Assembly (NCBI RefSeq): GCF_044704955.1
Contig: NC_091987.1
Coordinates: 148,366,001 to 148,430,000 of the forward strand
Direction: 5' to 3'
Length of the DNA stretch: 64,000 nucleotides
From: Pristiophorus japonicus
Lineage: Eukaryota
Part shown: piece after piece, positions 5,004-60,400 of the stretch
How positions within the stretch are numbered: position 1 is the stretch's first letter
Layout: each line of letters starts with the position of its first letter
Notes under the pieces: model-generated
What the model was told of the DNA's origin: nothing
The model's database searches: none
What the model saw: only the letters and a program-made list of their open reading frames with translations
Position numbers and translations under genes: made by a program

Positions 5004-5263
5004 CCCCGCCGTGTCCTTTACCCGCCCGGGCGATGCTAAACGCCTGTCCTGTGTCGCCACTGGATTTTACCCTCAAGCCATCGAGGTGACTCTGTGGAGA
5101 GACGGTGTGTTCCTCGCTGAGACCCAGTCCAGTGGGATCCTCCCCAACCACGACGGCACCTTCCAGGTCAGCAAGTGGACGGAGTTTGACCCCGAGGATC
5201 CGGGCACTTTCTCCTGTGAAGTGGAGCACGGCGGTCTGCAGGGGAAGGTGATCGTGTTTTATG
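5004..5263 (+). CDS. MHC class I heavy chain, alpha3 (Ig C1-set) exon; 5' edge hidden in the gap
   Basis: PAVSFTRPGDAKRLSCVATGFYPQAIEVTLW...PNHDGTFQ...FSCEVEHGGL: C1-set motifs CxATGFYP, PNxDGTFQ and F/YxCxVxH; phase-1 donor TATG|gtaaga at 5264; resembles shark UAA-type alpha3 as I recall it. Confidence 0.93.
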
Positions 5264-6283: not shown

Positions 6284-6391
6284 TGTTTCAACCTGTCTCC
6301 CAGGTCCCTGTTGTTGTCGGTGTTGTGCTTGGGGTCCTCGCGCTGCTCGTCATTCTCACCATTGTGGCTGTCGTCATCGACAAAAAGAAAG
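6284..6391 (+). CDS. MHC class I connecting peptide/transmembrane exon
   Basis: Polypyrimidine + cag acceptor at 6281-6283; phase 1-1; (V)FQPVSQVPVVVGVVLGVLALLVILTIVAVVIDKKK; donor G|gtagca at 6392. Confidence 0.9.
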
Positions 6392-7631: not shown

Positions 7632-7664
7632 CTGTGCAGAAGACCGTCTACAATCCAGCAAACA
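7632..7664 (+). CDS. MHC class I cytoplasmic exon 1 (33 bp)
   Basis: CACTAAC branch site at 7604-7610, ttgttttacag acceptor, (A)VQKTVYNPAN, donor A|gtaagt; Tyr motif YNPA typical of shark class I tails; phase 1-1. Confidence 0.88.
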
Positions 7665-39926: not shown

Positions 39927-42410
39927 TCACAATATCAGGGAAATGTCATCGAGGGGACAAAGAGTGACTTCAGACTGTGAGCACAATCTGAAACAGGTGG
40001 AGAAGGATCGGTGAGACTGTCGAGTTGAGTTGGATTGTCCAGGCTGTATCCTTAAACAGCAGAGTTTCTGAATACATGTCCTCCTCTGGGCCGGCTCCTG
40101 TGGAATCTGACAAAGGATGACTCTTAAGAAGTCCGCATCCCCTCGGAGACAAGGCCCCATGTGTAGGAAGGAGCTGCAGCACATTATATATAAGTTGACC
40201 CTCCTGGGGAAATCTTTGATGGGCTGTAAGGAAAGAACTTTCAAAAATTCCTCATACTTCAGGCTGCCTTCCCGTGAATGCTCCTGGATTATTGCACAAA
40301 CACTCTGTGATCCGATATATGGGGCGACCAAGCACAATGTTAAAAGACAGGCCCTTTGTATCTTCTCACTCTTTTCGTTCAGGTGTAGCAACAAACTGAC
40401 CAGGTTCAGGTGGATCTGTTCCATAAAGGAAGCCCTTGAATGTCCGTGTCCACATTTGGCCAAAGTGCCAAACACGGTAAATGCGGCAGCTCGAACCTGA
40501 GTGGATTTGAACTCAAAGAAAGATCGAATTCCTTTTGCTAATCCAATACAGAATGGTCCGATGGCATTGACACTGAGCTGGTCCAAGATCTTTGAGAGAG
40601 TTGATGTTACTTCAGTCATGAATTCCTCTTCATGGTAATCCTTGCCCTGCAGCATGTTACTCATTGCAGCCGACAGGTCTCTCCATCAGTCCAGGTACTC
40701 CAATTGGAATATTCCCCAGCCCCATAATACAGAGCAACCTGACAGCCAGAATCGAATCCAGAAGACCATTGAGCAAGCTATCCACCAGGGTGTTAGTGAG
40801 TCACATGTGGGAGATGGACGTACATTTTAAAAGTTCAGCAAAGAAGGCAGCCACAGTGGCTTTCTGGCCCACCTGTGTAGTTGTCAGGACGGGTGCTAGA
40901 TCCACCACAATCCCAACCAGCTGGTGCTCATTGAACAAGCTCATCGCTCTAGCGAGCAGAGCAATCCCCTTGTGGTGGGTGTGTGGGTCCAACATTAAAT
41001 CCCAGCCTCCCTTCTCCTGGACAAAATCTACCACCACTTCATTGTGCACTCGATTCAGCACGGCCCTGAGAGTCTCTACTGAGGACAGGCAAAGCTCTCG
41101 GCTTCTGCACACTGCTGTTGTTGATCGGTTTTCTGACTGCTCCAATTCACAGCAAGGAATAAAGTCAGAAGGCACATTCACATAGATGGAGGAACCGAGA
41201 TGTGTTAACAGAGAAGCGAATAAGTCAGAATACAAGGTGTTTACAGCCTCTGCAGACTCCGGCTCTGAGACCATCTCGTACATAGCGCAAATAACAGCCA
41301 GAGGATCAGGGCTCTCGGTTTCTGTCACTGAATGGCTCCTTTCACTAAATGCCACCGATCTGTTCAGGTATTGCATCAGTTGTTTCAATGAAGTGGCAGC
41401 CAATTGGGTCTTCTTTGCTACTGACCTCCAGATGGCGCTGGTGCACTCGCCCACAGGGAACCTGAGGAGACAACGCACAACGGCTGGCAGGTGCTGGGAA
41501 GTGAGCAGAGTGAAGGTTTGTAGAACTGTCAGTGTCACTTCCTGCTGTGTGATTGCTGCCATTTGAAGGTGTAGTGCCTCGAGGATCTCTGAGAGCTGAT
41601 CCTCCAGCTCAGGCCCACATCGCTTTACCACAGCTTTCAGTGTAACAGCAGCTGCATTGGAAGAGCTGGTTTGGTGGTCAATCAGCCCTTTGAAGAGCAT
41701 AAAGAGCAGGTTGGCCAGCTGGTCCCGGGGCAAGTGCTGGGAAATGAGTTGTGAGAGCTCGGAGCATCCTTTAAAGAGGACTGTGGTGTCTGTGCTCGCC
41801 AATTGTTGGCCAATTCTTCTCAGAATCCCTTCCTGCTCATATTGCTCATCTGGATTCACACCTTCAGAACATGCCTGGATCTTTAGTAGGATGTACAAAC
41901 TGTCCATGGCCCTCTGCCGTATGGTAAGCAACGGATCAACACATCGTGGCAGCAGCTGACCAACTACAACCCCCAAGTCAATCGGTGCCATTATATTTTC
42001 AGCATCAAGCTCCTGCCAGTAGAATGTCAGCAGCTTAGAGTCATGTCTACTGCTCGCTCTCTTTCATAATCCCTCGCTGATATTATCCACGTCTCCACAT
42101 ATTTGTATATGGTCTGGAGACCCTCAGGGGACAGGTTCTGAAGCAAAAGTTGTTTCAGGAGACTATAGAGCAGCCACACTATCCATGTATACAGTGTCTC
42201 CTCCTCCTGGGTTAACAGGTATCCTGTCTTGGTCATGGTCCATAGGAACTAAACTGAAAATACTCCTCAAACAGCTTTTAATTAATGGGCATTGATCAGC
42301 TTCATTTAGCCGTGGGTTCAGTTGGACAAGGTACAGGCAGGCATTCATTGCCAACGGCCGAATCGGAGTCTGCAGCAGCTCTGTTGGCCCTCGATAAGTT
42401 GTTGCATTTA
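39927..42410 (-). pseudogene. Maestro HEAT-like repeat protein (MROH1-like) C-terminal half, intronless, with stops/frameshifts: probable processed pseudogene
   Basis: LQTPIRPLAMNACLYLV, LLPRCVDP..IRQRAMD, TVAAFFAELL, VRAAAFTVFGTLAK and LVSLLLHL resemble MROH1; contiguous over ~2.5 kb; in-frame TGA at 40801-40803 and several frame breaks. Confidence 0.82.
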
Positions 42411-42418
42411 CTATAGTA

Positions 42419-42460
42419 AACATAGAAACATAGAAAATAGGTGCAGGAGTAGGCCATTCT
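42419..42460 (-). mobile_element. CR1 3' terminal stub (~40 bp)
   Basis: catagaaacatagaaaataggtgcaggagtaggccattc. Confidence 0.8.
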
Positions 42461-43104
42461 CCCTCTGGGACTGGGTGACACAGTGTGTTGATGCATTGTC
42501 CATTCCCGCTCTGTGACCGGGTGTCCACAGTACATTTGATACACTGTCCTTTCCCCCTGTGGGACTGGGTGTCACCATGGATTCGATGCACTGTCCTTTC
42601 CTCCTCAGGGGCCGGGTGTCACAGTGTGTTATATGCTCCATCCTTTCCCCTCTAGGACGGGTGTTGCAGTGCGTTAGATACACTGTCCTTTCCCCCTCTG
42701 TGACTGGGTGTCACAGTGCGTTGGATACACTTTCCTTTGCCCCGCTAGAACCAGCTGTCACAGTGACTTAGATTCACTGTCCTTTTGGCCTCTAGGACCG
42801 GGTGTCACAGAGTGTTAGATGCACTGTCCTTTCCCCCTCTAGTACCAGGTGTCACAGTGCCTTTGATATACTGTCCTTTCCCTCTGTGTGACCAGGTGTC
42901 ACAGTGCATTAGATACACTGTCCTTTCCCACTGTGGGACCGGGTGTCACAGTGTGTTTGATATAATGTCCTTTCTGCCTCTGGGACTGCCTTCACAGTGT
43001 TTAAGATATACTGTCCTTTCCCCCGCTGGGACTGGGTGACACACTGCGTTAGATACACTCTCATTTCCCCCCGCTGGGACCGGGTGCCACAGTGAATTAG
43101 ATAC

Positions 43105-46100: not shown

Positions 46101-48090
46101 AAACGGGCATCTGTTGTAGATGAACAGTCCCTTGTGCGTGTTGATGCAGGTGAGGCACTTCGAAGACTCCTCCAGCTCCTGCGTCATGTAGGCCGAAGTC
46201 AGTCAAGTTTGGTGAGGGTCTTGCCTCCTGCCAGCGTCACAAATAGGTCGTCTGCCTTAGGTAGCGGGTATGGTCCTGTAGCGAGAAACGATTAATAGTT
46301 ACTTTATAATTGCCACAAATCCTGACCGTGCCATCATTTTTGAGTGCTGGAACAATCGGGCTGGCCCACTCGCTGAATTCCACTGGGGAGATGATGCCCT
46401 CGCATTGCAGCCTGCCCAGCTCGATTTCCACTCTCTCCCTCATCATGTGAGGTACCGCTCGCGCCTAGTGGTGAATGGGTCATGCCTCTGGGACCAAGTG
46501 GATCCGCACCTTCGCCCCGGAAAAGTTTCCAATGCCTGGCTCAAAAAGGGAAGGAAATTTGTTAAGAACCTGGGTACATGAGGCCTCATCGACATGTGAT
46601 AGCGCTCGGATCCAGTTCCAGCGGATTTTGCCCAGCCAGCTCCTTCCAAGCAGTGTGGGGCCATTGCCCGGGCCAATCCAGAGTGGCAGTTCGTGCATTG
46701 TGCCCTCATAGGTGACCTTGACCATGGCGCTGCCCAGGACAGTGATAAGCTCTTTGGTGTACATTCTCAGTTTCATGTGGATGGGGCTCAGAGCTGGTCT
46801 GAATGCCTTGTTGCACCACAGTCTCTCAAACATCTTTTTACTCATGATGGATTGGCTAGCACCAGTGTCCAGTTCCATGGCTACTGGTAAGCCATTCAAT
46901 TTTATGTTTAGCATTATAGGTGGACATTTCGTCGAAAATGTGTGCACCCCTTGTACTTCAGCATCTGCCTCCTCTCTGAGGCTCGAAATTGCTTTGATCC
47001 ACCATGGACCGATCTTCCTCTGCCACGTGGTGGTTAGCAGGTTTTGCAGAGCTTGCAGCTCATTTGCAAGCTCATTGGAGGTGCCCCATTGTTCCACAGC
47101 TTTTGCAAACATACCCTTTGAAGCGGCATGAATAGACTGAATGGAAGCCTCCACAACGCCAACAAGGTGTGAATGGCCTTGCATTCATCCTTTGTTGGGG
47201 ACTCTGAGTCATCTGGGTCACCTGAGGCCTGCTGGCAGTTGCAGAGTCGTGGGTTCTGCCCTGTACATTTCTGCTCGCAAACACAGTTCCAGTTAATTTA
47301 TGAACATTGCTAGCACTTGTGTGCTGAGAGATTTGTTTGGTGTTATCACTGATGGACATAAACGCCTGTGCTATCGCAATGGCCTTACTGAGGGTCGGTG
47401 TCTCTACAGTCAAAAGTTTTCGTAGGATGGTCTCGTGGCCAATGCCCAGTACAAAAAAGTCTCTGAGCATTTGCTCCAGGTAGCCATCAAACTCACATTG
47501 TCCTGCAAGTCGCCTTAGCTCGGCGACGTAGCTCGTCACTTCCTGACCTTCAGATCGCTGGCACGTGTAGAACCGATACCTCGCCATCAGCACGCTCTCC
47601 CTCGGGTTAAGATGCTCCCGAACCAGTGTACACAACTTATCTGTGGGTTTCACTGGAGCCAGAAGATTTTTCATGAGGCTGTAGGTCGGTGTCCCGCAGA
47701 CTGTGAGGAGGACCGCTCTCCTTTTTGCAGTGCTTCATTCTCCGTCCAGCTCGTTGGCTACAAAGTACTGTGGTCTAGCCGTTCGACATAGGCTTCCCAG
47801 TCCTCACCCTCCGAGAACTTCTCCAGGATGCGTACAGTTTGCTGCATCTTTGCGTTGAATTCGTATTCTCGTCGCCAGTTATTGTGTTCCTAACACAGAT
47901 GAGGCTGCACACAGGGAGGTTAAAGTAACAGTGACCTCAGTCTTTAATAAGACACTCTTGAGTGAGGAACAGGCCTTAGGGACAGGCTTATATACAGTGC
48001 TCACAAGGGATGCTGGGATCCCTTGAGACTTCAGGGGATGAGCTCCCTGGTGGCGGAACATGGGAGTGCATGCTTTAAAGATACACAACA
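43105..48090 (-). mobile_element. full-length degraded Gypsy element, 211-bp LTRs (43105-43315, 47880-48090), TSD GATAC
   Basis: GATAC at 43100-43104 and 48091-48095; PBS TGGCGACGAG; gag CCHC, LDTGAS, RT, RNase H and integrase fragments; about 10 LTR differences by eye. Confidence 0.93.
45141..45613 (-). mobile_element. 5'-truncated CR1 inserted in Gypsy pol
   Basis: Tail catagaaa x3; ORF 45303-45605 QRRFTRLIPG. Confidence 0.9.
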
Positions 48091-50364
48091 GATACACTGT
48101 TCTTTCCCCCTCTGGGTCCGAGTATCACAGGTTTTTAAATACACTGTCCTTTCGCCCTCTGGAACGGGTGTCACAATGCGTTAGATGCACTGTCCGTTCT
48201 CCCTCATGGACCGGTTGTCACAATGCGTTAGATACACTGTCCTTTCCCCATCTGGGACCGGGTGTCACAGTACATTAGATACACTGTCCTTTTCCCCTGT
48301 GGGACTGGGTGTCACAGTGCGTTAGACACACTGTCCTTTCCTTCCCTGGGACTGGGTGTCACAGTGCGTTTGATACACTATCCTTTCACCCTCTGGCACC
48401 GGGTGTCACAGTGCGTTAGATACACTGTCCTTTTCCCCCTGTGTGACCAGGTGACACAGTGCGTCAGATACACTGTCCTTTCCCACTCTGGGACCGGGTG
48501 TCGGGTGTCACAGTGTGTTCAATACAATGTCCTTTCCGCCTCTGGGACTGGGTGACACAATGCGTTCGATATACTGTCCTTTTCACCCTCTGGGACAGGG
48601 TGACACAATGCATTAGATATACTGTCCTTACCCCTCAGTGACGGTGTGTCACAGTGTGTTAGATACACTGTCCTTTCTCCCTCTGGGACCGGATGTCGCA
48701 GTGAGTTAGATACACTGTACTTTCCCCCGCTGGGATCAGGTGTCACATTGCGTTAGATACACTGTCCTTTCCCCCTCTGGGACCGGGTGTCACAGTGCAT
48801 TAGATAAACAGTCCTTTCCCCTCTAGGACTGCTTGTCACAGAGGGTTAGATACACAGTCTTTTCCCTCCCTGGGACCAGGTGTCCCAGTGCCTTAGATGC
48901 ATTGTATTTTCCCCCTCTGAGAATGGATCACACAATATAAGATACACTGACCTTTCCCACTCTGGGACTGGGTGTCACAGTGTGTTCGATACACTGTCCT
49001 TTCACCTTCTGGGGCCGGGTGACACGGTGTGTTAGATACACTGTCAATTCACCCTGTGGGACCGGGTGTCACAATGCGTTTGATACACTGTCCTTTCCCC
49101 TCTGGGATGGGTGTCACAGTGTGTTAGATACACTGTCCATTTCCGCTCTGTGACTGGGTGTCACATTGTGTTAGATACACTGTCCTTTCCCCCTCTAGGA
49201 CTGCTTGTCACAGTGCCTTAGATGCACTGTATTTTCCCTCTCTGAAAATGGATCACACAATATTAGATACACTGTCCTTTCCCCATCTGGGACCGGGTGT
49301 CACAGTGCGTTAGATACACTGTCCTTTCCCCATCTGGGACCGGGTGTCATAGTGCCTTTGATATACTGTCCTTTCCCTCTGTGTGACCGGGTGACACAGT
49401 GCGTTAGATAGATTGTCCTTTCCCACTCTGGGACCGGGTGTCACAGTGTGTTTGATACAATGTGCTTTCCGCCTCCAGGACTGCCTGGCACAGTGTTTAA
49501 GATACACTGTCCTTTCCCCCTCTGAGAACTGGTGTCCCAGTGCCTTAGATACACTGTATTTTCCCCCTCTGGGACCGGGTGTCACAGTACTTTGTGTGGT
49601 GTATGTAGGCACCTTTAGTAATGATTCCAAGAGGCAGGGTATGATTTTAAACTGTGTAGACTGTAGTACTTTTTTTTTGCAACTCCTTGAATGAGGACAC
49701 CAAGCTGTGAACTCCCTTTACCCTAAGTTCTCCAGCAGCAGCACCCTCTGCTGTACAGGTAAGGTGTGTACAGGGTAAGGGTACATACAGTGTTACATAT
49801 CAGTGTTACAGACAGCACACAACAAACAAGCATGCATATATAACACTTTGCTCTCTGGGACCAAATGTCAAGTGCATTAGATACACTGTCCTTTCACCCT
49901 CTGGGACCGGGTGTCGCAGTGTGATAGATACACTGTCCTTTCACCCTCTGGGACCGGGTGTCACAGTGCATTAGATACACTGTCCATTCCCCCCTGTGTG
50001 ACTGGGTGTCACAGTGCATTAGATACACTGTCCTTTCCCCCCTGTGTGACCGGGTGACGCAGTGCGTTAGGCAGACTGTCCTTTCCCCCTCTGGGACCGG
50101 GTGTCACAGTGCATTAGATACACTGTCCTTTCCTCCTCTGGGACCGGCTGTCACAGTGCGTTTGATACACTGTCCTTTCACTCTCTCGGACCGGGTGTCA
50201 CAGTGCGTTTGATACACTGTCCTTTCACTCTCTGGGACTGGGTGTCACAGTGCGTTAGATACACTGTCCTTTCCCCCTCTGGGACTGGTTGTTACAGGTT
50301 TTTAGATACACTGTCCTTTCCCCCTCTGGGACCGGGTGTCACACTGTGTTTGATACACTGTCCT

Positions 50365-50858
50365 TTGCACATACCATTGCAGGGAGCAGCGCGTGCTGCT
50401 GCAGGAGGGTGATGGCTATGAAGCCTGGTCACTGATTGCAGTACGGGCAGGCACAGCAAGAGGGGCGAAGGAGCAGCAAGAGTCCATAGAGGGAAGTGAC
50501 CGGGGCCCAGGGGAGACGTGAATCTGGGGCCCAGAAGAAGCAAGGGCCCAGGGGCAGCACAGGCCAGCCCACACTGCGATATGTGTACGTGCTCAGTCTG
50601 TGCAACAGAGCTGGGCTCCAGTTAGTCTTGGGTAATCCTTGCCACTGGACCAAGACCTCGCTCTGTCAAGCTCGTGTGGTGGCTGGTGTGCAACGGCCAC
50701 CACATGTTATAAAAATCCACGCACAGGCATCTTCCACCCTTCATGATGTAGTTCAGGATCTGGAATATTGGGTCCTTCATTGAACCACCTGTGAACTCAT
50801 CCATTATTGGCGTGGAAGCAAGTCATCCTCGCTTCGAGGGACTGCCTATGATGATGAT
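50365..50858 (+). mobile_element. non-autonomous bipartite RTE-derived element (5'UTR + 3' tail), copy 1
   Basis: 5' part matches the RTE 5'UTR/ORF start (16440-16520 rc, 28540-28637); 3' part gtggaagcaagt...gagggactgcctatgatgatg matches the RTE tail at 27015 (rc). Confidence 0.8.
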
Positions 50859-51236
50859 TTCCCCCTCTGGGACCGGGTGTCACAGTGCGATAGATAGACT
50901 GACCTTTCCCATTTCTGGGATCGGGTGTCACAGTACCTTAGATACACTGTTCCTTCCCCCTACTGGGACCGGCTGTCACAGTACGTTAGATACACTGTCC
51001 TTTGCCCTTCTGGAACCGCGTGTCACAGTGCGTTTGATACACTGTCCTTTCCCCCTCTGGGACCGGGTGTCACAGTGCGTTTGATACACTGTCCTTTCAC
51101 TCTCTGGGACTGGGTGTCACAGTGCGTTAGATACACTGTCCTTTCCCCCTCTGGGACTGGTTGTTACAGGTTTTTAGACACACTGTCCTTTCCCCCTCTG
51201 GGACCGGGTGTCACACTGTGTTTGATACACTGTCCT

Positions 51237-51730
51237 GTGCACATACCATTGCAGGGAGCAGCGCGTGCTGCTGCAGGAGGGTGATGGCTATGAAGCCTGG
51301 TCACTGATTGCAGTACGGGCAGGCACAGCAAGAGGGGCGAAGGAGCAGCAAGAGTCCGTAGAGGGAAGTGACCGGGGCCCAGGAGAGACGTGAATCTGGG
51401 GCCCAGAAGAAGCAAGGGCCCAGGGGCAGCACAGGCCAGCCCACACTGCGATATGTGTACGTGCTCAGTCTGTGCAACAGAGCTGGGCTCCAGTTAGTCT
51501 TAGATAATCCTTGCCACTGGACCAAGACCTCGCTCTGTCAAGCTCGTGTGGTGGCTGGTGTGCAACGGCCACCACACGTTAAAAAAATCCATGCACAGGC
51601 ATCTTCCACCCTTCATGATGTAGTTCAAGATCTGGAATATTAAGTCCTTCATTGAACCACCTGTGAACTCATCTATTATTGGCGTGGAAGCAAGTCATCC
51701 TCGCTTCGAGGGACTGCCTATGATGATGAT
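51237..51730 (+). mobile_element. non-autonomous RTE-derived element, copy 2 (872-bp tandem duplication)
   Basis: Same sequence and same satellite flanks at offset 872. Confidence 0.8.
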
Positions 51731-52288
51731 TTCCCCCTCTGGGACCGGGTGTCACAGTGCGATAGATAGACTGACCTTTTCCCTTCTGGAATCGGGTGTC
51801 ACAGTACCTTAGATACACTGTTCCTTCCCCCTACTGGGACCGGCTGTCACAGTACGTCAGATCCACTGTCTTTTACCCTTCTGGAACCGCGTGTCACAGT
51901 ACGTTAGATACGCTCTCCTTTCCCCTTCTAGGACCGCGTGTCACAGTACCTTAGAAACACTGTTCTTTCCCCCTCTGGTACTGCGTGTCACAGTCCGTTT
52001 GATACACTGTCCTTTCCCCCTACTGGGACCGGGTGTCACAGTACATTAGATACACTCTCCTTTCCCTTTCTGGGACAAGGTGTCACCGTGTGTTAGATAC
52101 ACTGTCCTTTCCCCCTCTGGGACAAGGTGTCACCGTGTGTTAGATACAATGTCCTTTCCCCCTCTGGGACAAGGTGTCACCGTGTGTTAGATACAATGTC
52201 CTTTCCCCCTCTGGGACAAGGTGTCACAATGCGTTAGATACACATTCCCTTATCCCGCTGGGACCGGGTGACACACTGTGTTTGATAC

Positions 52289-54105
52289 AATCAATATGGA
52301 GGTTAAAATCACCCATGATTATTGCTGTTCCCTTTTTACAAGCCCCCACTATTTCCTGGTTTATGCTCCGACCAACAGAGTTGCTACTGTTAGGGGGCCT
52401 ATAGACTATGCCCACCAGTGACTTTTTCCCCTTATTATTCCTTATCTCCACCCAAACCGTTTCAACATCCTGATCTTTTGAGCCCATATCGTTTCTCACT
52501 ATTGCAGTGATTCCATCCTTTATCAATAGAGCTACCCCACCTCCTTTTCCTGTCTGTCTGTCCTTCTGGATTGTCAAGTACCCCTGAATATTTAATTCCC
52601 AGTCCTGGTCACCTTGCCACCATGTCTCTGTAATGGCTATCAGATCATACCCATTTGTATCTATTTGTGCCGTCAACTCATCTATTTTGCTACGAATGCT
52701 TCATGCATTTAGACAAAGAACCTTTAAATTTGTTGTTTTTTACCATTTTTTCTGCTTCATTCCTCTCTCCTTCAAACTCACTTTCTTTATTTTTGCTTTC
52801 TAATTCCAGCTTTACTCCTCTCCCTAATGAATCTATTTTCAGGTTCCCATCCCCCCGCCAAGCTAATTTAAACCCTCTCTAACAGCACTAGCAACCCCGT
52901 CCCCGTGAGGATATTGGTCTTGGCTCTGTTGAGGTACAACCCGTCTGCCTTGTACAGGTCCCACCTCCCCCAGAAGCGGTCTCAATGCCTCAGGAAACTA
53001 AAGCCCTCCCTCCTGCACCATCTCTCCAGCCACGCATTCATCCACTCTATCCTTCTGTTTCTGTATTCACTAGCTCGTGGCACTGGGAGTAATCTGGAGA
53101 TTACCATCTTTGAGGTCCTGCTTTTTAATTTCTCTCCCAGCTCCCTAAACTCTGCCTGCAGGAGCTCATCCCTCTTTCTACCTATGTCATTGGTCCTGAT
53201 ATGGACCACGACCTCCGGGTGTTCACCCTCTCCCCCCAGAATGCCTTGCAGCCACTCAGTGACATCCTTGACCCTGGCATCAGGGAGGCAACATACCATC
53301 CTGGAGTCACGTCTGCGGCCGCAGAAACGCCTGTCTGCTCCCCTGACTATTGAATCCCCTACCACTATAGCTCTTCCATTCTTCTTACTCCCCCCCCCCC
53401 CCCGCCGTGTGCAGCTGAGCCACCCGTGGTGCCGTTGCACTCCCCAGAGGCACCATCGCCCCCACCAGTACTCAGAACAGAGGTTGGAGAGCGAGATGGA
53501 CTCAGGGAACTCCTGCACTACCTGCCGAGTCCTCTTCTGTCCGGCGGTCACCCACTCCCTCTCTACCTGCACACTCTTAAGCTGCGGGGTGACCACCTCT
53601 AGAAACCTGCTATCCATGTAGCTCTCAGTTTCACGGATGCATCGCAGTGACTCCAGCCGCCGCAACAGTTCCAAAACACGGAGCTCGAGTTGGTGCAGCT
53701 GGAGACACCTCCTGCACACGTGGTCGTCCCGGCTGCACGAAGTGTCCAGGATTTCCCACATGCCGCAGGATGTGCACTCCACGGGACTGAGCTGCCCTGC
53801 CATCCCTCTGGTTACACTCGGAACTATCGAGTAGGACTAAACTCCAAACCTTAGCACAACACGCCCAGCAAACAGTTGTTTAATTAATGAGTTCTCCTTA
53901 GATAATAAAGATCACTTATCTATTTAATTGCAGGTCCTAACTTACATCAAAGCCCAAGGTTTTTTAAAGGAAAGACAAATACTCACCAATCCACCAGCCA
54001 ATCACTTGGCTGTGACGTCACACTTTGATTTTCATTCTTTTTACTTTTTTTCCCTTACTCCTGACACTGCTGCAGCTCGTTCCTCCCGGCTCCTCCGACC
54101 TCTCT
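52289..54105 (-). mobile_element. CR1 5' portion: 5'UTR, degraded ORF1 and start of ORF2 endonuclease
   Basis: ORF 52982-53803 (CTSC..CRRC, VVGDSIVRG); ORF 52224-52676 (ITETW, YRPP, GDFN). Confidence 0.88.
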
Positions 54106-57100
54106 CATACTCTCACTCTTTCTCCCTCTCCCTGTTTCACTCACTCTCACTCTCCCTGTTTCACTCTCTCTCACCCTCACCCTCCCTGTTTCACGTTCAC
54201 TCTCCCTCTTTCTCTGTTTTTCTCTCTCTCACTCTTTCTCACTAACTTTCTCTCTCTCTCCCTATTTCACTCTATCATTCTCCCTCTTCCTGTTTCACTC
54301 ACTCACTCTCTCCTTCTCTCTCCCTGCTTCACTGTCTTTCACTCTCTCTATTCCTCTCTCCCTGTTTCTCTCACTCACTTGCTCCCTCCCTGTTTCACTT
54401 TCTCTCCCTCTCCCTGTTTCACTCTCACTCTTTCACGCTTTCTCCCTCACTCTCCCTGTTTCACTCTTACTTTCCCTGTTTCAATCCCTCACTCTCTCTC
54501 CCTGTTTCTCTCTCTCTCCCTGTTTCACTCTCTCATTCTCTCTCTCCCTGTTTCACTCACTCGTTCCCTCTCTCTCCCTGGTTCACTCTCTCTCTCTCGC
54601 TCTCCCTCTTTCCCTGTTTCTCTCACTTTCTCCCTCCGTTTCACTTTCTCTCCCTCTCCCTGTTTCACTCTCACTCTTTCACGCTTTCTCCCTCACTCTC
54701 CCTGTTTCACTCTCACTTTCCCTGTTTCAATCCCTCACTCCCTGTTTCAATCTCTCACTCTCTCTCCCTGTTTCTTTCTCTCTCCCTGTTTCACTCTCTC
54801 ATTCTCCCTCTTCCTGTTTCACTCTCTCTCATTCTCCCTCTTCCTGTTTCACTCTCTCTCATTCTCTCTCTCCCTGTTTCACTCACTCATTCTCTCACTC
54901 ATTCTCGCCCTCTCTCTCCCTGGTTCATTGTCTCTCTCTCTCTCTCTCTCCCTGTTTCTCTCACTTTCTCCCTCCCTGTTTCTCTTTCTCTCCCTCTCCC
55001 TGTTTCACTCTCACTCTTTCACTTTCACTCCCTCACCCTGTTTCACTCTCTCTCGCTCCCTGTTTCACACTCTCACTCTCCCTGTTTCAATCTCTCACTC
55101 CCTGTTTCAATCTCTCACTCCCTGTTTCACTCTCTCATTCTCTTTCGCTCCCTGTTTAACTCTCACTCTCACACTCACTCTCCCTGTTTCACTCTCACTC
55201 TCCCTCTTTCTCTGTTTCACTCTCTCTCACTCTCCCTGTTTCACTCTCTCTCACCCTCACCCTCCCTGTTTCACGTTCACTCTCCCTCTTTCTCTGTTTT
55301 TCTCTCTCTCACTCTTTCTCACTAACTTTCTCTCTCTCTCCCTATTTCACTCTATCATTCTCCCTCTTCCTGTTTCACTCACTCACTCTCTCCTTCTCTC
55401 TCCCTGCTTCACTGTCTTTCACTCTCTCTATTCCTCTCTCCCTGTTTCTCTCACTCACTTGCTCCCTCCCTGTTTCACTTTCTCTCCCTCTCCCTGTTTC
55501 ACTCTCACTCTTTCACGCTTTCTCCCTCACTCTCCCTGTTTCACTCTTACTTTCCCTGTTTCAATCCCTCACTCTCTCTCCCTGTTTCTCTCTCTCTCCC
55601 TGTTTCACTCTCTCATTCTCTCTCTCCCTGTTTCACTCACTCGTTCCCTCTCTCTCCCTGGTTCACTCTCTCTCTCTCGCTCTCCCTCTTTCCCTGTTTC
55701 TCTCACTTTCTCCCTCCGTTTCACTTTCTCTCCCTCTCCCTGTTTCACTCTCACTCTTTCACGCTTTCTCCCTCACTCTCCCTGTTTCACTCTCACTTTC
55801 CCTGTTTCAATCCCTCACTCCCTGTTTCAATCTCTCACTCTCTCTCCCTGTTTCTTTCTCTCTCCCTGTTTCACTCTCTCATTCTCCCTCTTCCTGTTTC
55901 ACTCTCTCTCATTCTCCCTCTTCCTGTTTCACTCTCTCTCATTCTCTCTCTCCCTGTTTCACTCACTCATTCTCTCACTCATTCTCGCCCTCTCTCTCCC
56001 TGGTTCATTGTCTCTCTCTCTCTCTCTCCCTGTTTCTCTCACTTTCTCCCTCCCTGTTTCTCTTTCTCTCCCTCTCCCTGTTTCACTCTCACTCTTTCAC
56101 TTTCACTCCCTCACCCTGTTTCACTCTCTCTCGCTCCCTGTTTCACACTCTCACTCTCCCTGTTTCAATCTCTCACTCCCTGTTTCAATCTCTCACTCCC
56201 TGTTTCACTCTCTCATTCTCTTTCGCTCCCTGTTTAACTCTCACTCTCACACTCACTCTCCCTGTTTCACTCTCACTCTCCCTCTTTCTCTGTTTCACTC
56301 TCTCTCACTCTGTCTTTCTCATAACGTTCTCTCTCACTCTCCCTGTTTCACTCTCTCATTCTCACTCTCCCTGTTTAACTCACTCCCTCTATCCCTCTCT
56401 CTCCCTGGTTCACAGTCTCTTACTCTTTCCCTGTTTCCCTCCCCCTCTCTTTCCCTCCCTGTTTCCCTCCCCCTCTCTTTCCCTCCCTGTTTCACTATCT
56501 CCCCCTCTCCCCATTTCACTCTCACTCTTTCTCCCTCACTCACCCTGTTTCACTCTCCCTCACTCCCTGTTTCACACTCTCACTCTCCCTGTTTCAATCT
56601 CTCACTCCCTGTTTCAATCTCTCTCTCTCGCTCTGTTTCTCTCACTCTCTCTGTTTCTCTCTCTCCGTTTCCCTATCTCACTCTCTCTCTCCCTATTTCA
56701 CTCTCTCTCTCACTCTCCCTGTTTCACTCTTTCTCACTCTCCCTGTTTCACTCTCTCCCTGATTCACTCTCTCCATCTCCATGTTTCACTCACTCCCACT
56801 GTTTCACTCTCTCTCTCTCACCCTCTCCCTGTTTAACACTCTCTCTCTCTCACTCACTCACTAACTCTCTCTCACTCTCCGTTTCACTCTCACTCTCATT
56901 CTTAACGATTCACTCTATCTCTCTCACTTACAAACTCTCTCTCACTTTACCTGCCCGTTTAACTCTCACTCTCCCTCATTTCTCTCTCTCCCTGTTTCAC
57001 TCTCTCTCTCCCTACTTCACTCTCTTTCACACTCACTCTCTCTGTTTCACAATCACTCTCCTTTCTGTTTCACTCTCTCCAACTCTCACTCTCTCACTAA

Positions 57101-57925
57101 CTTTCTCTCTCTCACTCTCTCTGTTTCACTCTCACTCGTCCTGTTTCACTTTCTCACTCTTTCTCTCCGTTTAACTCTCTCTCTCTCTCACTCTCCTTGT
57201 TTCACTCTCACTCTCACTGTTTCACTCTCTCACTCTATCTCTCTCACTTACTCACCAACTCCCTCTCTCTCTCTCTCTCACTCTCCCTGTTTCACTCTCT
57301 CACTCTCCCTGTTTCACTCTCTCACTCTCCCACTCCCTATTTCACTCTCTCTCTCTCCCTGTTCCATACTCTCTCTCTCCCTGTTTCACTCTCTCTTACT
57401 CTCCCTGTTTCTCTCACTCACTCGCCCTGTTTCACTCTCTCTCACTCTCTCTTGCCCTGTTTCACTTTCTCACTCTCTCCCCGTTTAACTCTCTCTCACT
57501 CTCTCTCTCTCTCTCTCTCACTCTCACTCTCACTCTCCCTGTTTCACTCTCTCACTCGTCCTGTTTCACTCTCACGCTGTTTCACTTTCTCACTCTCCGT
57601 TTAACTCTCTCACTCTCTCACTCTCCCTGTTTCACTCTCACTCTCCCTGTTTCACGGTCTCTCTCACTCTCTCCGTTTCATTCTCTGACACTCCACTCTC
57701 CCTGTTTCATTCTCTCTCACACTCTCTTGCCCTGTTTCACCCTCTCACTCTATCTCCGTTTAACTCTCTCTTTCACTCTCTCTCACACTCTCACTCTCCG
57801 TTTCACTCTCTCACACTCCCTGTTTCACACTCTCGCTCTCACTCTCACTCTCACTTTTTCACTCTCACTCTCACTCTCACTTTTTCACTCTCACTCTCAC
57901 TCTCACTCACTGACTCTCCCTGTTT
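54105..57925. repeat. 3.8-kb pyrimidine-rich repeat built on CCCTGTTTCACTCTC, with a near-exact 1080-bp higher-order duplication
   Basis: The line at 54181 is identical to 55261 and this continues for about 1.08 kb. Confidence 0.93.
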
Positions 57926-57999
57926 AATTAACTCATTCATTCATTCACTCCCTTTCTCTGTTTTATCTCTTTCCATGAAACGAGCTGGGTGATAATTTA

Positions 58000-58150
58000 A
58001 ACATTCCCCGGTTGTTCTGCCTGGTAACAATGACATCATGCTGAGTCTATTTATTATTGGACAGCCCCATCAGTCAGCGCCGCCCCATGGTCTCCAAGGG
58101 ATCTCCCTGTGACTGGGATGTGAAGCGGTCTCTCAGCACTAGGGGCGGAG
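58000..58150 (+). promoter_or_regulatory. MHC-type X1-X2-Y promoter module with kB-like half site and GC box
   Basis: AACATTCCCC 58000-58009; RFX-like TGCCTGGTAACA 58018-58029; CRE-like TGACATCA 58031-58038; inverted CCAAT ATTGG 58056-58060; GGGGCGGAG 58142-58150. Confidence 0.6.
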
Positions 58151-58184
58151 TGAGCTTTCTTAAGGTCCAGACCCACAGCACATT

Positions 58185-58262
58185 GCTGCAAATCTCAGCG
58201 GCTCAGGGCAGCGTCTGTGGAGAGAAACCGAGTTAACGTTCCAGGTCTGTGACTCTTCGTCT
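58185..58262. mobile_element. possible Penelope-like terminal repeat remnant
   Basis: gcagcgtctgtggagagaaaccgagttaacgttccaggtc resembles a common shark PLE repeat as I recall it; not verifiable here. Confidence 0.4.
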
Positions 58263-58284
58263 CACAAGGCCTGTTCAGCAGGTA

Positions 58285-59385
58285 AGGGGGTAATACATTA
58301 GCATAGATAGAGGATTGGCTAACAACCAGAAAACAGAGAGTCGAGATAAATGGTTCATTCGCGGGTTGGCAATCAGTAACTAGTGGGGTGACACAGGGAT
58401 CAGTGCTGGGACCGCAACTATTTACAATTTATATTAACGACTTGGAAGAAAGGACCGAGTGTAACGAAGCCAAGTTTGCTGACGATATAAAGATGGGAGG
58501 AAAAGCAATTTGTGAGGAGGACACAAAAATTCTGCAAAAGGACATTGACAGGCTAAGTGAGTGGGCAAAAATTTGGCAGATGGAGTATAATATTGGAAAG
58601 TGTGAGGTCATGCACTTTGGCAGAAAAAAATCAAAGAGCAGGTTATATTTAAATGGAGAAAGATTGCAAAGTGCTGCAGTACAGCGGGACCTGGGGTACT
58701 TTAGCATGAAACACAAAAGGTTAGTATGCAGGTACAGCAAGTGATCAGGCTCTTGGCCATTATTACAAAGGAGATGGAATATAAAAGCAGCGAAGTCTTG
58801 CTACAGTTATACAGGGTATTGGAGAGGCCACACCTGGAATACTACGTGCAATTTTGATTTCCATATTTACGAAAGGACATACTTGCTTTGGAGGCAGTTC
58901 AGAGAAGGTTCACTAGGTTGATTCCGGGGATAAAGGGGTTGACTTATGAGGAAAGGTTGAGCAGGTTGGACCTCTACTCATTGGGATTCAGAAGAATGAG
59001 AGGTGATCTTATCAAAAAGTACAAGATTATGAGGGGGCTTGACAAGGTGGATGCAGAGGGGATGTTTCCACTGATAGGAGAGATTAGAACTAGTGGGCAT
59101 AATCTTAGAATAAGGTTATTTAAAACTGAGATGAGGAGGAATTTCTTCTCTCAGAGAGTTGTAAATCTGTGGAATTCTCTGCCTCAGAGAGTTGTGGAAG
59201 CTGGGACATTGAATAAATTTAAGACAGCGATAGACAGTTTCTTAACCGATAAGGGATTAAGGGGTTATGGGGAGCGGGCAGAGAAGTGGACCTGAGTCCA
59301 TGGTCGGATCAGCCATGCTCGTATTAAATGGTGGAGCTCAAGGGGCCGTATGGCCTACTCCTGCTCCTATTTCTTATGTTCTTAC
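58285..59385 (+). mobile_element. 5'-truncated CR1 (TTCTTATG tail)
   Basis: ORFs 58388-58744 (QGSVLGP, FADD) and 58888-59295. Confidence 0.9.
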
Positions 59386-59639
59386 GTCGAGGGCAGGCGG
59401 GAGCGAGGAACACGGTCAGAAGAGGCCAGTGTGAGTGTAATTTATACTGTGGGGGGCCTGGAGGAATAGGATTGATTCCCCTGGGCTCCAGACAGAGTCA
59501 CTGGGCCTGTCCAGCCCCAGACTTCCCTTTCCCTCCCACCACAGCAGCTCGCTTCAGACCCCTTCTCCCAGCAGCACCCTTCAGATCCCCCCTCCCCCCA
59601 CCAGCAGCAGATATCCAACTCACCTGGGGCTGCTGCCCA

Positions 59640-60400
59640 CCCTCCCTCTCTGCCCCTTCCATCTCTGCCTCCTCCCCTTCTATCTCTGCCCCTGCCCACT
59701 GCCTCTCTGCCCCCTCCATCTCTGCCCCCTCCATCTCTGCCCCCTCCATCTCTGCCCCCTCCATCTCTGCCCCCTCCATCTCTTCCCCCTCCCCTTTCCG
59801 TCTCTGCCCCTTCCGTCTCTGCCCCTTCTGTCTCTGCCCCTTCCGTCTCTGCCTCCTCCATCTCTGCCCCCTCCCCTTCCATCTCTGCCCCTCCCCCTGC
59901 CCCTCTGTCTCTGCCCCTGCCCACTGCCTCTCTGCCCTCTCCCCCTGCATCTCTGCCCTCTCCCTGCATCTCTGCCCTCTCCCCCTGCATCTCTGCCCTC
60001 TCCCCTGCCTCTCTGTCCCCTCCCCCTGCCTCTCTGCCCTCTCTCCCCGCCTCTCTGTCCCCTCCCCCTGCCTCTCTGTCCCCTCCCCCTGCCTCTCTGC
60101 TCTCTCTCCCCGCCTCTCTGCCCTCTCCCCCTGCCTCTCTGTCCCCTCCCCCTGCCTCTCTGTCCCCTCCCCCTGCCTCTCTGCCCTCTCTCCCCGCCTT
60201 CTCCCCCTGCATCTCTGCCCTCTCCCCCTGCCTCTTTGTCCCCTCCCCCTGCCTCTCTGCCCTCTCTCCCCGCCTCTCTGTCCCCTCCCCCTGCCTCTCT
60301 GCCCTCTCCCCCCGCCTCTCTGTCCCCTCGCCCTGCCTCTCTGCCCGCTCCATCTCTTCCCCCTCCTCCTCTCTCTCTGCCCCCTCCATCTCTGTCCCTT
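59640..60400. repeat. C/T-rich minisatellite (CTCTGCCCC core, 15- to 21-bp units)
   Basis: direct reading. Confidence 0.9.

What the first reader, a model, noticed from the sequence alone, without database searches (positions are those of the whole stretch)
54105..58287. Orphan MHC-type X1-X2-Y promoter sitting directly behind a 3.8-kb array of ISRE-like motifs
Seen: RFX-like TGCCTGGTAACA, adjacent TGACATCA and an ATTGG 18 nt after TGACATC, preceded by a kB-like half site and followed by a GC box and a strong donor CAG|GTAAGG at 58282. The repeat ending ~75 bp upstream is built on GTTTCACTCTC and contains at least nine TTTCACTTTC (GAAAGTGAAA, the IRF/ISRE consensus), for example at ~54393, 54639, 55017, 57144, 57460 and 57580; some were doubled by a recent 1080-bp duplication. 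Known: MHC class I promoters combine kB, ISRE and S-X-Y elements with conserved X-Y spacing (RFX, CREB/ATF, NF-Y with NLRC5/CIITA). Inference: a copy-number-variable repeat could act as a tunable interferon enhancer for an MHC-region gene with a non-coding first exon (~58090-58281), or as a distal XY enhancer. No leader-peptide exon is visible; the ATG at 58087 opens only a 49-aa non-hydrophobic ORF.
Basis: partly seen in the sequence, partly recalled or inferred. Interest (0 to 1): 0.72.

Follow-up and report, generated by a model that had tools for sequence, protein, structure and literature searches.

The report
Distal enhancer of shark MHC-I genes
This control box is not an orphan: it lies 16.6 kb upstream of a damaged shark MHC class I immune gene that has its own promoter, so it is likely a distant enhancer, and the repeat behind it is a local satellite of 4 to 126 kb in sister copies whose interferon-type sites are mostly single-letter variants and probably passengers.

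Summary
Observation confirmed, reading revised. The X1-X2-Y module (58018-58060) is real: the exact pattern occurs 5 times in 5.9 Gb, always upstream of MHC class I exons. It is not an orphan promoter. The class I leader exon lies 16.6 kb downstream, outside the window, behind its own ISRE/X-X2-Y/CCAAT promoter, and 2 of 2 aligned processed copies begin there. The module is likely a distal X-Y enhancer like those of mammalian class II genes; motif positions are invariant in three lineages (21/21, spacer 12/21). The linked gene looks broken. The 'exon' is largely a dispersed repeat, and the donor and GC box are not conserved. The array is a locus-specific satellite (327 of 332 genome matches) of 3.7, 5.0 and about 126 kb behind three sister modules, grown from a ~190-bp seed. 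Its 9 perfect ISRE-like sites are one-letter variants of the unit and are not in excess under order-3 to order-7 models, though they cluster near the module. No expression data were available. This scan noted a similar satellite expansion on other DNA of this genome (e1-9232663).

The parts
54100..57925 (+). Pyrimidine-rich satellite array, unit about CTCTCACTCTCCCTGTTTCA; 72 GTTTCAC cores, 9 perfect TTTCACTTTC; one of four arrays of this family at this locus
   Evidence: locus-specific
54144..56311 (+). Recent internal tandem duplication of about 1080 bp (exact runs 805 bp at offset 1080 and 301 bp at offset 1078)
57996..58009 (+).
58018..58029 (+). X1 box (RFX-type; factor assignment from recalled consensus), 12/12 invariant in three lineages
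58031..58038 (+). X2 box (CRE-like TGACATCA; TGACG half-site in the C19 paralogs)
58056..58060 (+). Y box (ATTGG), 21 nt after TGAC, same register as the proximal class I promoters of this genome
58087..58236 (+). 49-aa ORF, no family match, not a leader peptide
58184..58261 (+). Fragment of a dispersed short repeat (36 of the 41 listed hits match only this piece, mostly 87-91% identical, on many contigs)
58279..58287 (+). Donor-like CAG|GTAAGG: variant of a G-rich minisatellite unit, at the LINE junction; shared by the three C11 copies only
58286..59383 (+). 5'-truncated LINE reverse-transcriptase fragment (CR1-like, name recalled), shared by the three C11 copies, absent at this spot in the C19 paralogs
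59384..59640 (+). Non-coding segment conserved upstream of class I paralogs on C11, C19 and C3 (80-99%)
5005..5263 (+). Alpha3 (C1-set) exon of the upstream paralog, class I gene A
6284..6391 (+). Transmembrane exon of class I gene A
7632..7664 (+). First cytoplasmic exon of class I gene A

Best explanation
The X1-X2-Y module is likely a distal enhancer of a shark MHC class I gene family: it sits 8-21 kb upstream of the leader exon in 4 of its 5 genomic copies, and each of those genes has its own proximal promoter. It would load RFX, CREB/ATF and NF-Y and recruit NLRC5 or CIITA by looping, as the distal S-Y modules of mammalian class II genes do (inferred, untested). The copy in this window belongs to gene B of a three-copy cluster outside the main MHC contig; gene B looks like a pseudogene, so this copy may be idle. 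The array behind it is a locus-specific satellite amplified from a ~190-bp TTTCAC-rich seed; its perfect ISRE-like sites are C>T variants of the unit and are probably passengers for the most part.
For: Five copies of the module, each upstream of class I exons; looser pattern 14 matches, 8 on the contig that carries a class II alpha gene and most class I genes, 3 here, 3 elsewhere, control 1. Leader exon MIGLIVLVLLCGGVSA at C11:148440643 with X-X2-Y at the same 21-nt register and a CCAAT box. C19 proximal promoters carry a single perfect TTTCACTTTC at about -160 plus two X-Y modules. Two processed copies (L065, L069) begin just after the proximal TATA-like site of L046; no processed copy fetched matches 58086-58285. 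Motif 21/21 invariant versus spacer 12/21 (Fisher p=0.0013) and 80-84% in two neighbouring homologous segments (P=0.009-0.027). Gene B: 13-aa deletion in alpha3, TM acceptor deleted with the exon out of phase, 32-nt first tail exon, 5 of 8 peptide-anchor residues. Array: C19 seeds have 6 and 8 TTTCAC and 0 perfect sites; perfect share 23 of 2044 cores in array C; length 3.7 to 126 kb while the module stays 97-98% identical.
Against: No binding, chromatin or expression data. Perfect sites are denser beside the module than chance within the satellite would suggest: 4, 3 and 5 in the last kb of A, B, C; 5 of 23 cores versus 18 of 2021 in the rest of array C (Fisher p=3e-6, units not independent, noticed post hoc); only 2 of 156 other 1-kb windows reach 4. 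Two class I loci on C19 (54.67 and 57.16 Mb) show no clear homolog of this module in the 45 and 40 kb fetched upstream of their leaders (only a weak E=0.18 X-Y module at 41 kb for the first). The processed copies derive from a paralog in which the distal module was not found, so they show where that paralog starts, not gene B. No S box could be assigned. Only three independent lineages underlie the conservation test.
Confidence: 0.6

Rival explanations
1. The array is a working homotypic IRF cluster: IRF1/ISGF3 would bind the perfect and near-perfect GAAA sites beside the X-Y module, so array length or the number of perfect sites would tune interferon induction of each class I paralog.
For: TTTCNNTTTC density 3.1/kb in array B versus 0.10/kb in the rest of the window; clustering in the last kb; TTTCAC repeats persist right behind the module in all five copies although the units differ; satellite confined to this locus; a tandem repeat with 45 PU.1 sites is an IFNB1 enhancer (PMC13373173, abstract).
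Against: The base unit breaks the first GAAA half-site; the perfect variant is a minor one (outside the 14 commonest classes in array C); count not in excess under order-3+ models; C19 seeds have none; array D has no module beside it and the far parts of C are full of transposon insertions; the genes already have an ISRE-like site at the proximal promoter; gene B looks broken.
Confidence: 0.17
2. The module is an alternative upstream promoter that would make a transcript with a non-coding first exon or a long read-through across the proximal promoter.
For: Same orientation as the gene in all copies; a GC-rich box after Y in 4 of 5 copies; intronless class I genes on C3 carry both the proximal promoter and the 59418-59589 homologous segment, which an upstream-started transcript could explain.
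Against: Donor, GC box at 58142 and the body of the proposed exon are not conserved; no TATA-like element seen; processed copies start at the proximal promoter; the C3 genes lack the module itself and could have arisen otherwise.
Confidence: 0.11
3. The module is a non-functional leftover, for example the promoter of a lost neighbouring gene, carried along in segmental duplications and alike only by descent.
For: Surrounded by transposon fragments and minisatellites in every copy; linked genes are often damaged (gene B; frameshifted alpha3 at C19:56.6 Mb); not found at two other class I loci.
Against: Motif-restricted conservation with exact spacing across lineages that are only 83-91% alike in neighbouring segments.
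Confidence: 0.12

Closest known systems
Distal S-Y / XL enhancer modules of the mammalian MHC class II locus and invariant chain (PMC1802633 passages incl. Table 1; PMC7866136 passages)
   Same: Second X-X2-Y module with fixed spacing, away from the promoter of an MHC gene that has its own proximal module
   Different: Here upstream of class I genes, in a cartilaginous fish, with a satellite attached; no S box assigned; binding untested
MHC class I proximal promoter: enhancer A, ISRE, SXY with NLRC5 (PMC4374748 passages; PMC7922096 passages)
   Same: X1-X2-Y order, X-Y spacing in the range given for NLRC5 targets, ISRE-like sites upstream
   Different: Not next to the leader exon; the true proximal promoter is 16.4 kb downstream; ISRE-like sites are variants inside a satellite rather than one element
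MORC3-repressed tandem-repeat enhancer of IFNB1 (PMC13373173, abstract and section list only)
   Same: Tandem repeat holding many copies of an immune transcription-factor-like motif near an immune gene
   Different: There the unit itself is a PU.1 site and function is shown; here only 1-10% of cores are perfect IRF-type sites and nothing is shown
Shark MHC class I heavy chain PDB 6lup_A and the MHC-Ia-like genes of elasmobranchs (PMC10751288 passages)
   Same: Best structural-database match for alpha1 (E 3.7e-21) and alpha2 (E 8.9e-29) of gene B; same exon layout
   Different: Gene B keeps 5 of 8 anchor residues, carries lesions and lies on another contig than the main MHC, whereas that paper found no class Ib genes outside the MHC in the genomes it surveyed

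Membership tests
MHC SXY module | X1, X2 and Y boxes in order with fixed spacing | tested here: met
   21 nt between TGAC and ATTGG, same as in 7 proximal promoters of the same class I lineage in this genome; box identities rest on recalled consensus
MHC SXY module | S box about 16 bp upstream of X | tested here: inconclusive
   An invariant 14-15 bp block lies 9-22 nt upstream of X1, but the S position itself varies among copies; S consensus was not available as text in the papers read
MHC SXY module | Linked to MHC or antigen-presentation genes | tested here: met
   5 of 5 exact matches lie upstream of class I exons
MHC SXY module | Bound by RFX, CREB, NF-Y with NLRC5 or CIITA | not testable with these tools
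   needs ChIP or EMSA
MHC class I proximal promoter | Immediately upstream of start site and leader exon | tested here: not met
   Leader exon 16.6 kb downstream with its own promoter
Distal X-Y enhancer | Remote from the promoter of the target gene and conserved | tested here: met
   8.1, 9.1, 16.6 and 21.4 kb from the leader in 4 copies, leader not seen in the fifth; 21/21 invariant
Distal X-Y enhancer | Enhancer activity and contact with the promoter | not testable with these tools
   needs reporter, ATAC, 3C
Homotypic IRF/ISRE tandem-repeat enhancer | Repeat unit is itself a consensus site | tested here: not met
   Unit GTTTCACTCTC; perfect variant 7/72, 7/96, 23/2044, 32/900 cores in B, A, C, D
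Homotypic IRF/ISRE tandem-repeat enhancer | Motif excess over the repeat's own composition | tested here: inconclusive
   No excess over order-3 to 7 models for the whole array; local excess in the last kb
Homotypic IRF/ISRE tandem-repeat enhancer | Interferon-inducible activity that scales with copy number | not testable with these tools
   no RNA or chromatin data
Classical MHC class Ia gene (gene B) | Eight peptide-anchor residues and intact exons | tested here: not met
   5 of 8 by eye with recalled HLA-A2 numbering; alpha3 deletion; TM exon out of phase. The gene at C19:54.67 Mb keeps 8 of 8

The most novel reading that the evidence does not exclude
Shark MHC class I genes use a conserved distal RFX/NF-Y enhancer, and in one translocated cluster an IRF half-site minisatellite beside it has grown into a 4-126 kb satellite whose module-proximal kilobase holds selected perfect ISREs, giving each paralog a different, fast-evolving interferon dial.
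Probability: 0.15. Interest if true: 0.78.

Novelty: new variant of a known kind. Interest (0 to 1): 0.42.

Why it matters
Distal X-Y enhancers are described for mammalian class II genes. A conserved one upstream of class I genes in a cartilaginous fish would push long-range RFX/NLRC5-type control back to the oldest jawed vertebrates. The locus also offers a ready series (seed of ~190 bp, arrays of 3.7, 5.0 and ~126 kb behind the same module) to test whether a satellite changes interferon response. Eight literature searches (listings only) showed no title on shark class I promoters or enhancers, but most subscription journals are not covered. The value is tempered because the gene tied to this copy looks dead and nothing functional is shown.

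Tried and rejected
RNA run search with 57925-58285: no RNA holder listed, so no reads were laid; this says nothing on expression. Look-up of earlier scan notes by sequence and by words returned nothing. Non-coding first exon: rejected as above. Dispersed-repeat origin of the module: rejected. Genome-wide CT satellite: rejected; a 31-mer gave 10 matches, all at C11:148.12-148.69 Mb, and a 24-mer gave 332, of which 327 were counted in the four local arrays and one listed on C9 (the tool listed only the first 100 places, so 4 are unplaced). Profile search for the module upstream of C19:54.67, C19:57.16 and three C3 genes found no clear homolog. Orthology of perfect ISRE-like sites among A, B, C: 2 positions align between A and B, none clearly with C; alignment of the satellite is unreliable. 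No other gene seen between module and leader: long ORFs there are transposon or repeat derived by eye. S-box consensus sought in PMC7922096, not given as text. The C4, C24 and C19:55.87 Mb matches of the looser pattern were only looked at locally; their genes were not identified. Supplements of papers were not opened.
Full report
Setting. The window is G000:C11:148366001-148430000 in a 5.9-Gb genome. LINE and LTR-element frames and about 100 tandem-repeat rows fill it. The class I exons found match a shark class I chain (PDB 6lup_A) best (that 6lup is a shark protein is recalled), so I treat the genome as a shark's.

Observation. Every element named is present at the stated place. The array spans 54100-57925, holds 72 GTTTCAC cores, 44 GTTTCACTCTC and exactly 9 TTTCACTTTC, 3 of them copies made by a 1080/1078-bp duplication. 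Nine exceeds order-1 and order-2 Markov models of the array (0 of 300 simulations each) but not order-3 to order-7 models (8-36% reach 9).

The module is not an orphan. A DNA search with 57925-58285 gave 41 matches: three near-identical copies on C11 (A 148356659+, B this one, C 148576098-), two diverged copies on C19 (79% and 83%), and 36 hits to a short dispersed repeat at 58184-58261 only. The exact X1-X2-Y pattern has the same 5 matches, reversed control 0. A looser pattern has 14: 8 on C19, 3 on C11, 1 on C4, 2 on C24, control 1. C19 carries most class I exons and one of two class II alpha matches, so I take it as the main MHC contig (inference). Downstream of the window lie alpha1 (148446169), alpha2 (148447248), alpha3 (148449224), TM and tail exons of gene B. 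Its leader exon, found through processed copies, starts at 148440643, 16.6 kb from the module. Copies C and the two C19 copies lie 9.1, 8.1 and 21.4 kb upstream of their leaders. For copy A no leader, alpha1 or alpha2 was seen; a run of N precedes its alpha3, so loss and a gap cannot be told apart.

The real promoter. In front of each leader sits X-X2(TGACTCA)-Y with 21 nt between TGAC and ATTGG, the same register as the distal module, followed in most by a CCAAT box. The C19 promoters also show one TTTCACTTTC at about -160 and a second, more upstream X-X2-Y whose Y box is altered in C11 genes B and C. Two processed copies (L065 on C2, L069 on C6) align to the C19:57.15 Mb gene from a point just after a TATA-like site, which marks the start of that paralog's mRNA. 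None of the fetched processed copies matches the proposed exon.

The proposed exon and donor. 58184-58261 is a repeat fragment. The donor is the last unit of a G-rich minisatellite that reads GTCAG in both C19 copies; 17 of 35 LINE alignments begin at 58286, four bases after the GT. The GC box at 58142 is missing in A and C. The 49-aa ORF has no Pfam match.

Conservation. Across B, C19a and C19b, 21 of 21 motif positions are invariant against 12 of 21 in the spacer (Fisher p=0.0013) and 124/155 and 214/254 in two neighbouring homologous segments (chance of 21/21: 0.009-0.027). The C19 copies were first found by BLAST, not by the motif. A 14-bp block at 57996 is also invariant. Against this, no clear homolog was found upstream of two other C19 class I loci or three C3 genes.

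The array. In 460 kb fetched around the locus there are four arrays: A 5.0 kb, B 3.7 kb, C about 126 kb with transposon insertions, and D about 54 kb with no module beside it. D shares its far flank with C, so it is a duplicate or a haplotype copy. A 31-mer has 10 genome matches, all here; a 24-mer has 332, 327 of them counted in these arrays. The C19 copies have only a ~190-bp seed with 6 and 8 TTTCAC and no perfect site. The three copies are related and I noticed this after the fact.

State of the genes. Gene B lacks 13 residues of alpha3, has lost the normal TM acceptor so that the exon is out of phase, has a 32-nt first tail exon against 33 in A and C, and keeps 5 of 8 anchor residues (anchor numbering recalled). 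Gene C has intact leader, alpha1, alpha3, TM and tail exons; its alpha2 was not seen and a run of N lies where it is expected. Alpha3 of A and C is 99% identical and the 5' parts of A and B about 98%, so some copies may be assembly duplicates.

Mechanism. Shown: position, spacing, conservation, a separate proximal promoter, satellite lengths. Inferred: RFX, CREB/ATF and NF-Y load on the module and recruit NLRC5 or CIITA to boost the class I promoter from a distance, as for distal class II modules (PMC1802633 and PMC7866136, passages). X-Y spacing matters for NLRC5 targets and the S box sets specificity (PMC4374748, passages); I could not assign an S box. The array most likely expanded by slippage and unequal exchange from the seed. 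A tandem repeat can be an interferon-related enhancer (PMC13373173, abstract), so the rival stays open at about 0.17.

Novelty. A new variant of a known kind. My eight searches (listings only) showed no title on shark class I regulatory elements. PMC10751288 (passages) reports no class Ib genes outside the MHC in the elasmobranchs it surveyed; this cluster and the C3 genes lie on other contigs than C19. PMC6523485 and PMC7922096 were read as passages for background. Interest 0.42.

Noticed in passing
G000:C3:316.6-319.3 Mb; L066:2455-3519, L119, L121, L122: Nine intronless MHC class I matches without stops. The one read in full is a 355-aa frame with leader, alpha1-3, TM and tail, behind a retained proximal X-X2-Y-CCAAT promoter, with a broken IFIT-like exon upstream on the other strand (name from a recalled motif). 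Possible retrogene family outside the MHC.
   Followed up: partly
L042:3500-3700, L051:7700-7900, L071:5850-6050, L024:280-500: Proximal promoter of these shark class I genes has one ISRE-like site at about -160 and two X-X2-Y modules in tandem; the first Y box is altered in the C11 genes.
   Followed up: partly
G000:C19:54716665-54716705 (L118, L141): Another X1-X2-Y module 41 kb upstream of the class I gene that keeps 8 of 8 anchors, with a CTCF-like motif (recalled consensus) about 60 bp upstream.
   Followed up: no
G000:C19:52.86-53.93 Mb (L137-L140): Four copies of a compact promoter (ISRE-like in 3 of 4, X1-X2-Y, CCAAT, TATA) before a short leader exon of a different class I lineage.
   Followed up: no
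G000:C11:148114962-148168749 and 148576185-148702480: Arrays D and C share the same far flank; with the 99% identity of alpha3 in A and C this hints at segmental duplication or haplotype duplication in the assembly.
   Followed up: partly
window 39930-42060 (-): Intronless, interrupted Maestro HEAT-repeat (MROH-like) frames, probably a processed pseudogene.
   Followed up: partly
window 42457-43104, 48090-52289: 47-bp minisatellite in several blocks split by insertions; the same unit is seen in translation near arrays A and D.
   Followed up: no
G000:C6:35351065-35351286: A second class II alpha match outside C19; not examined.
   Followed up: no
G000:C2, C3, C5, C6, C9, C13, C17 (L055, L061-L069): Many processed, mostly broken class I copies scattered over the genome.
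   Followed up: partly
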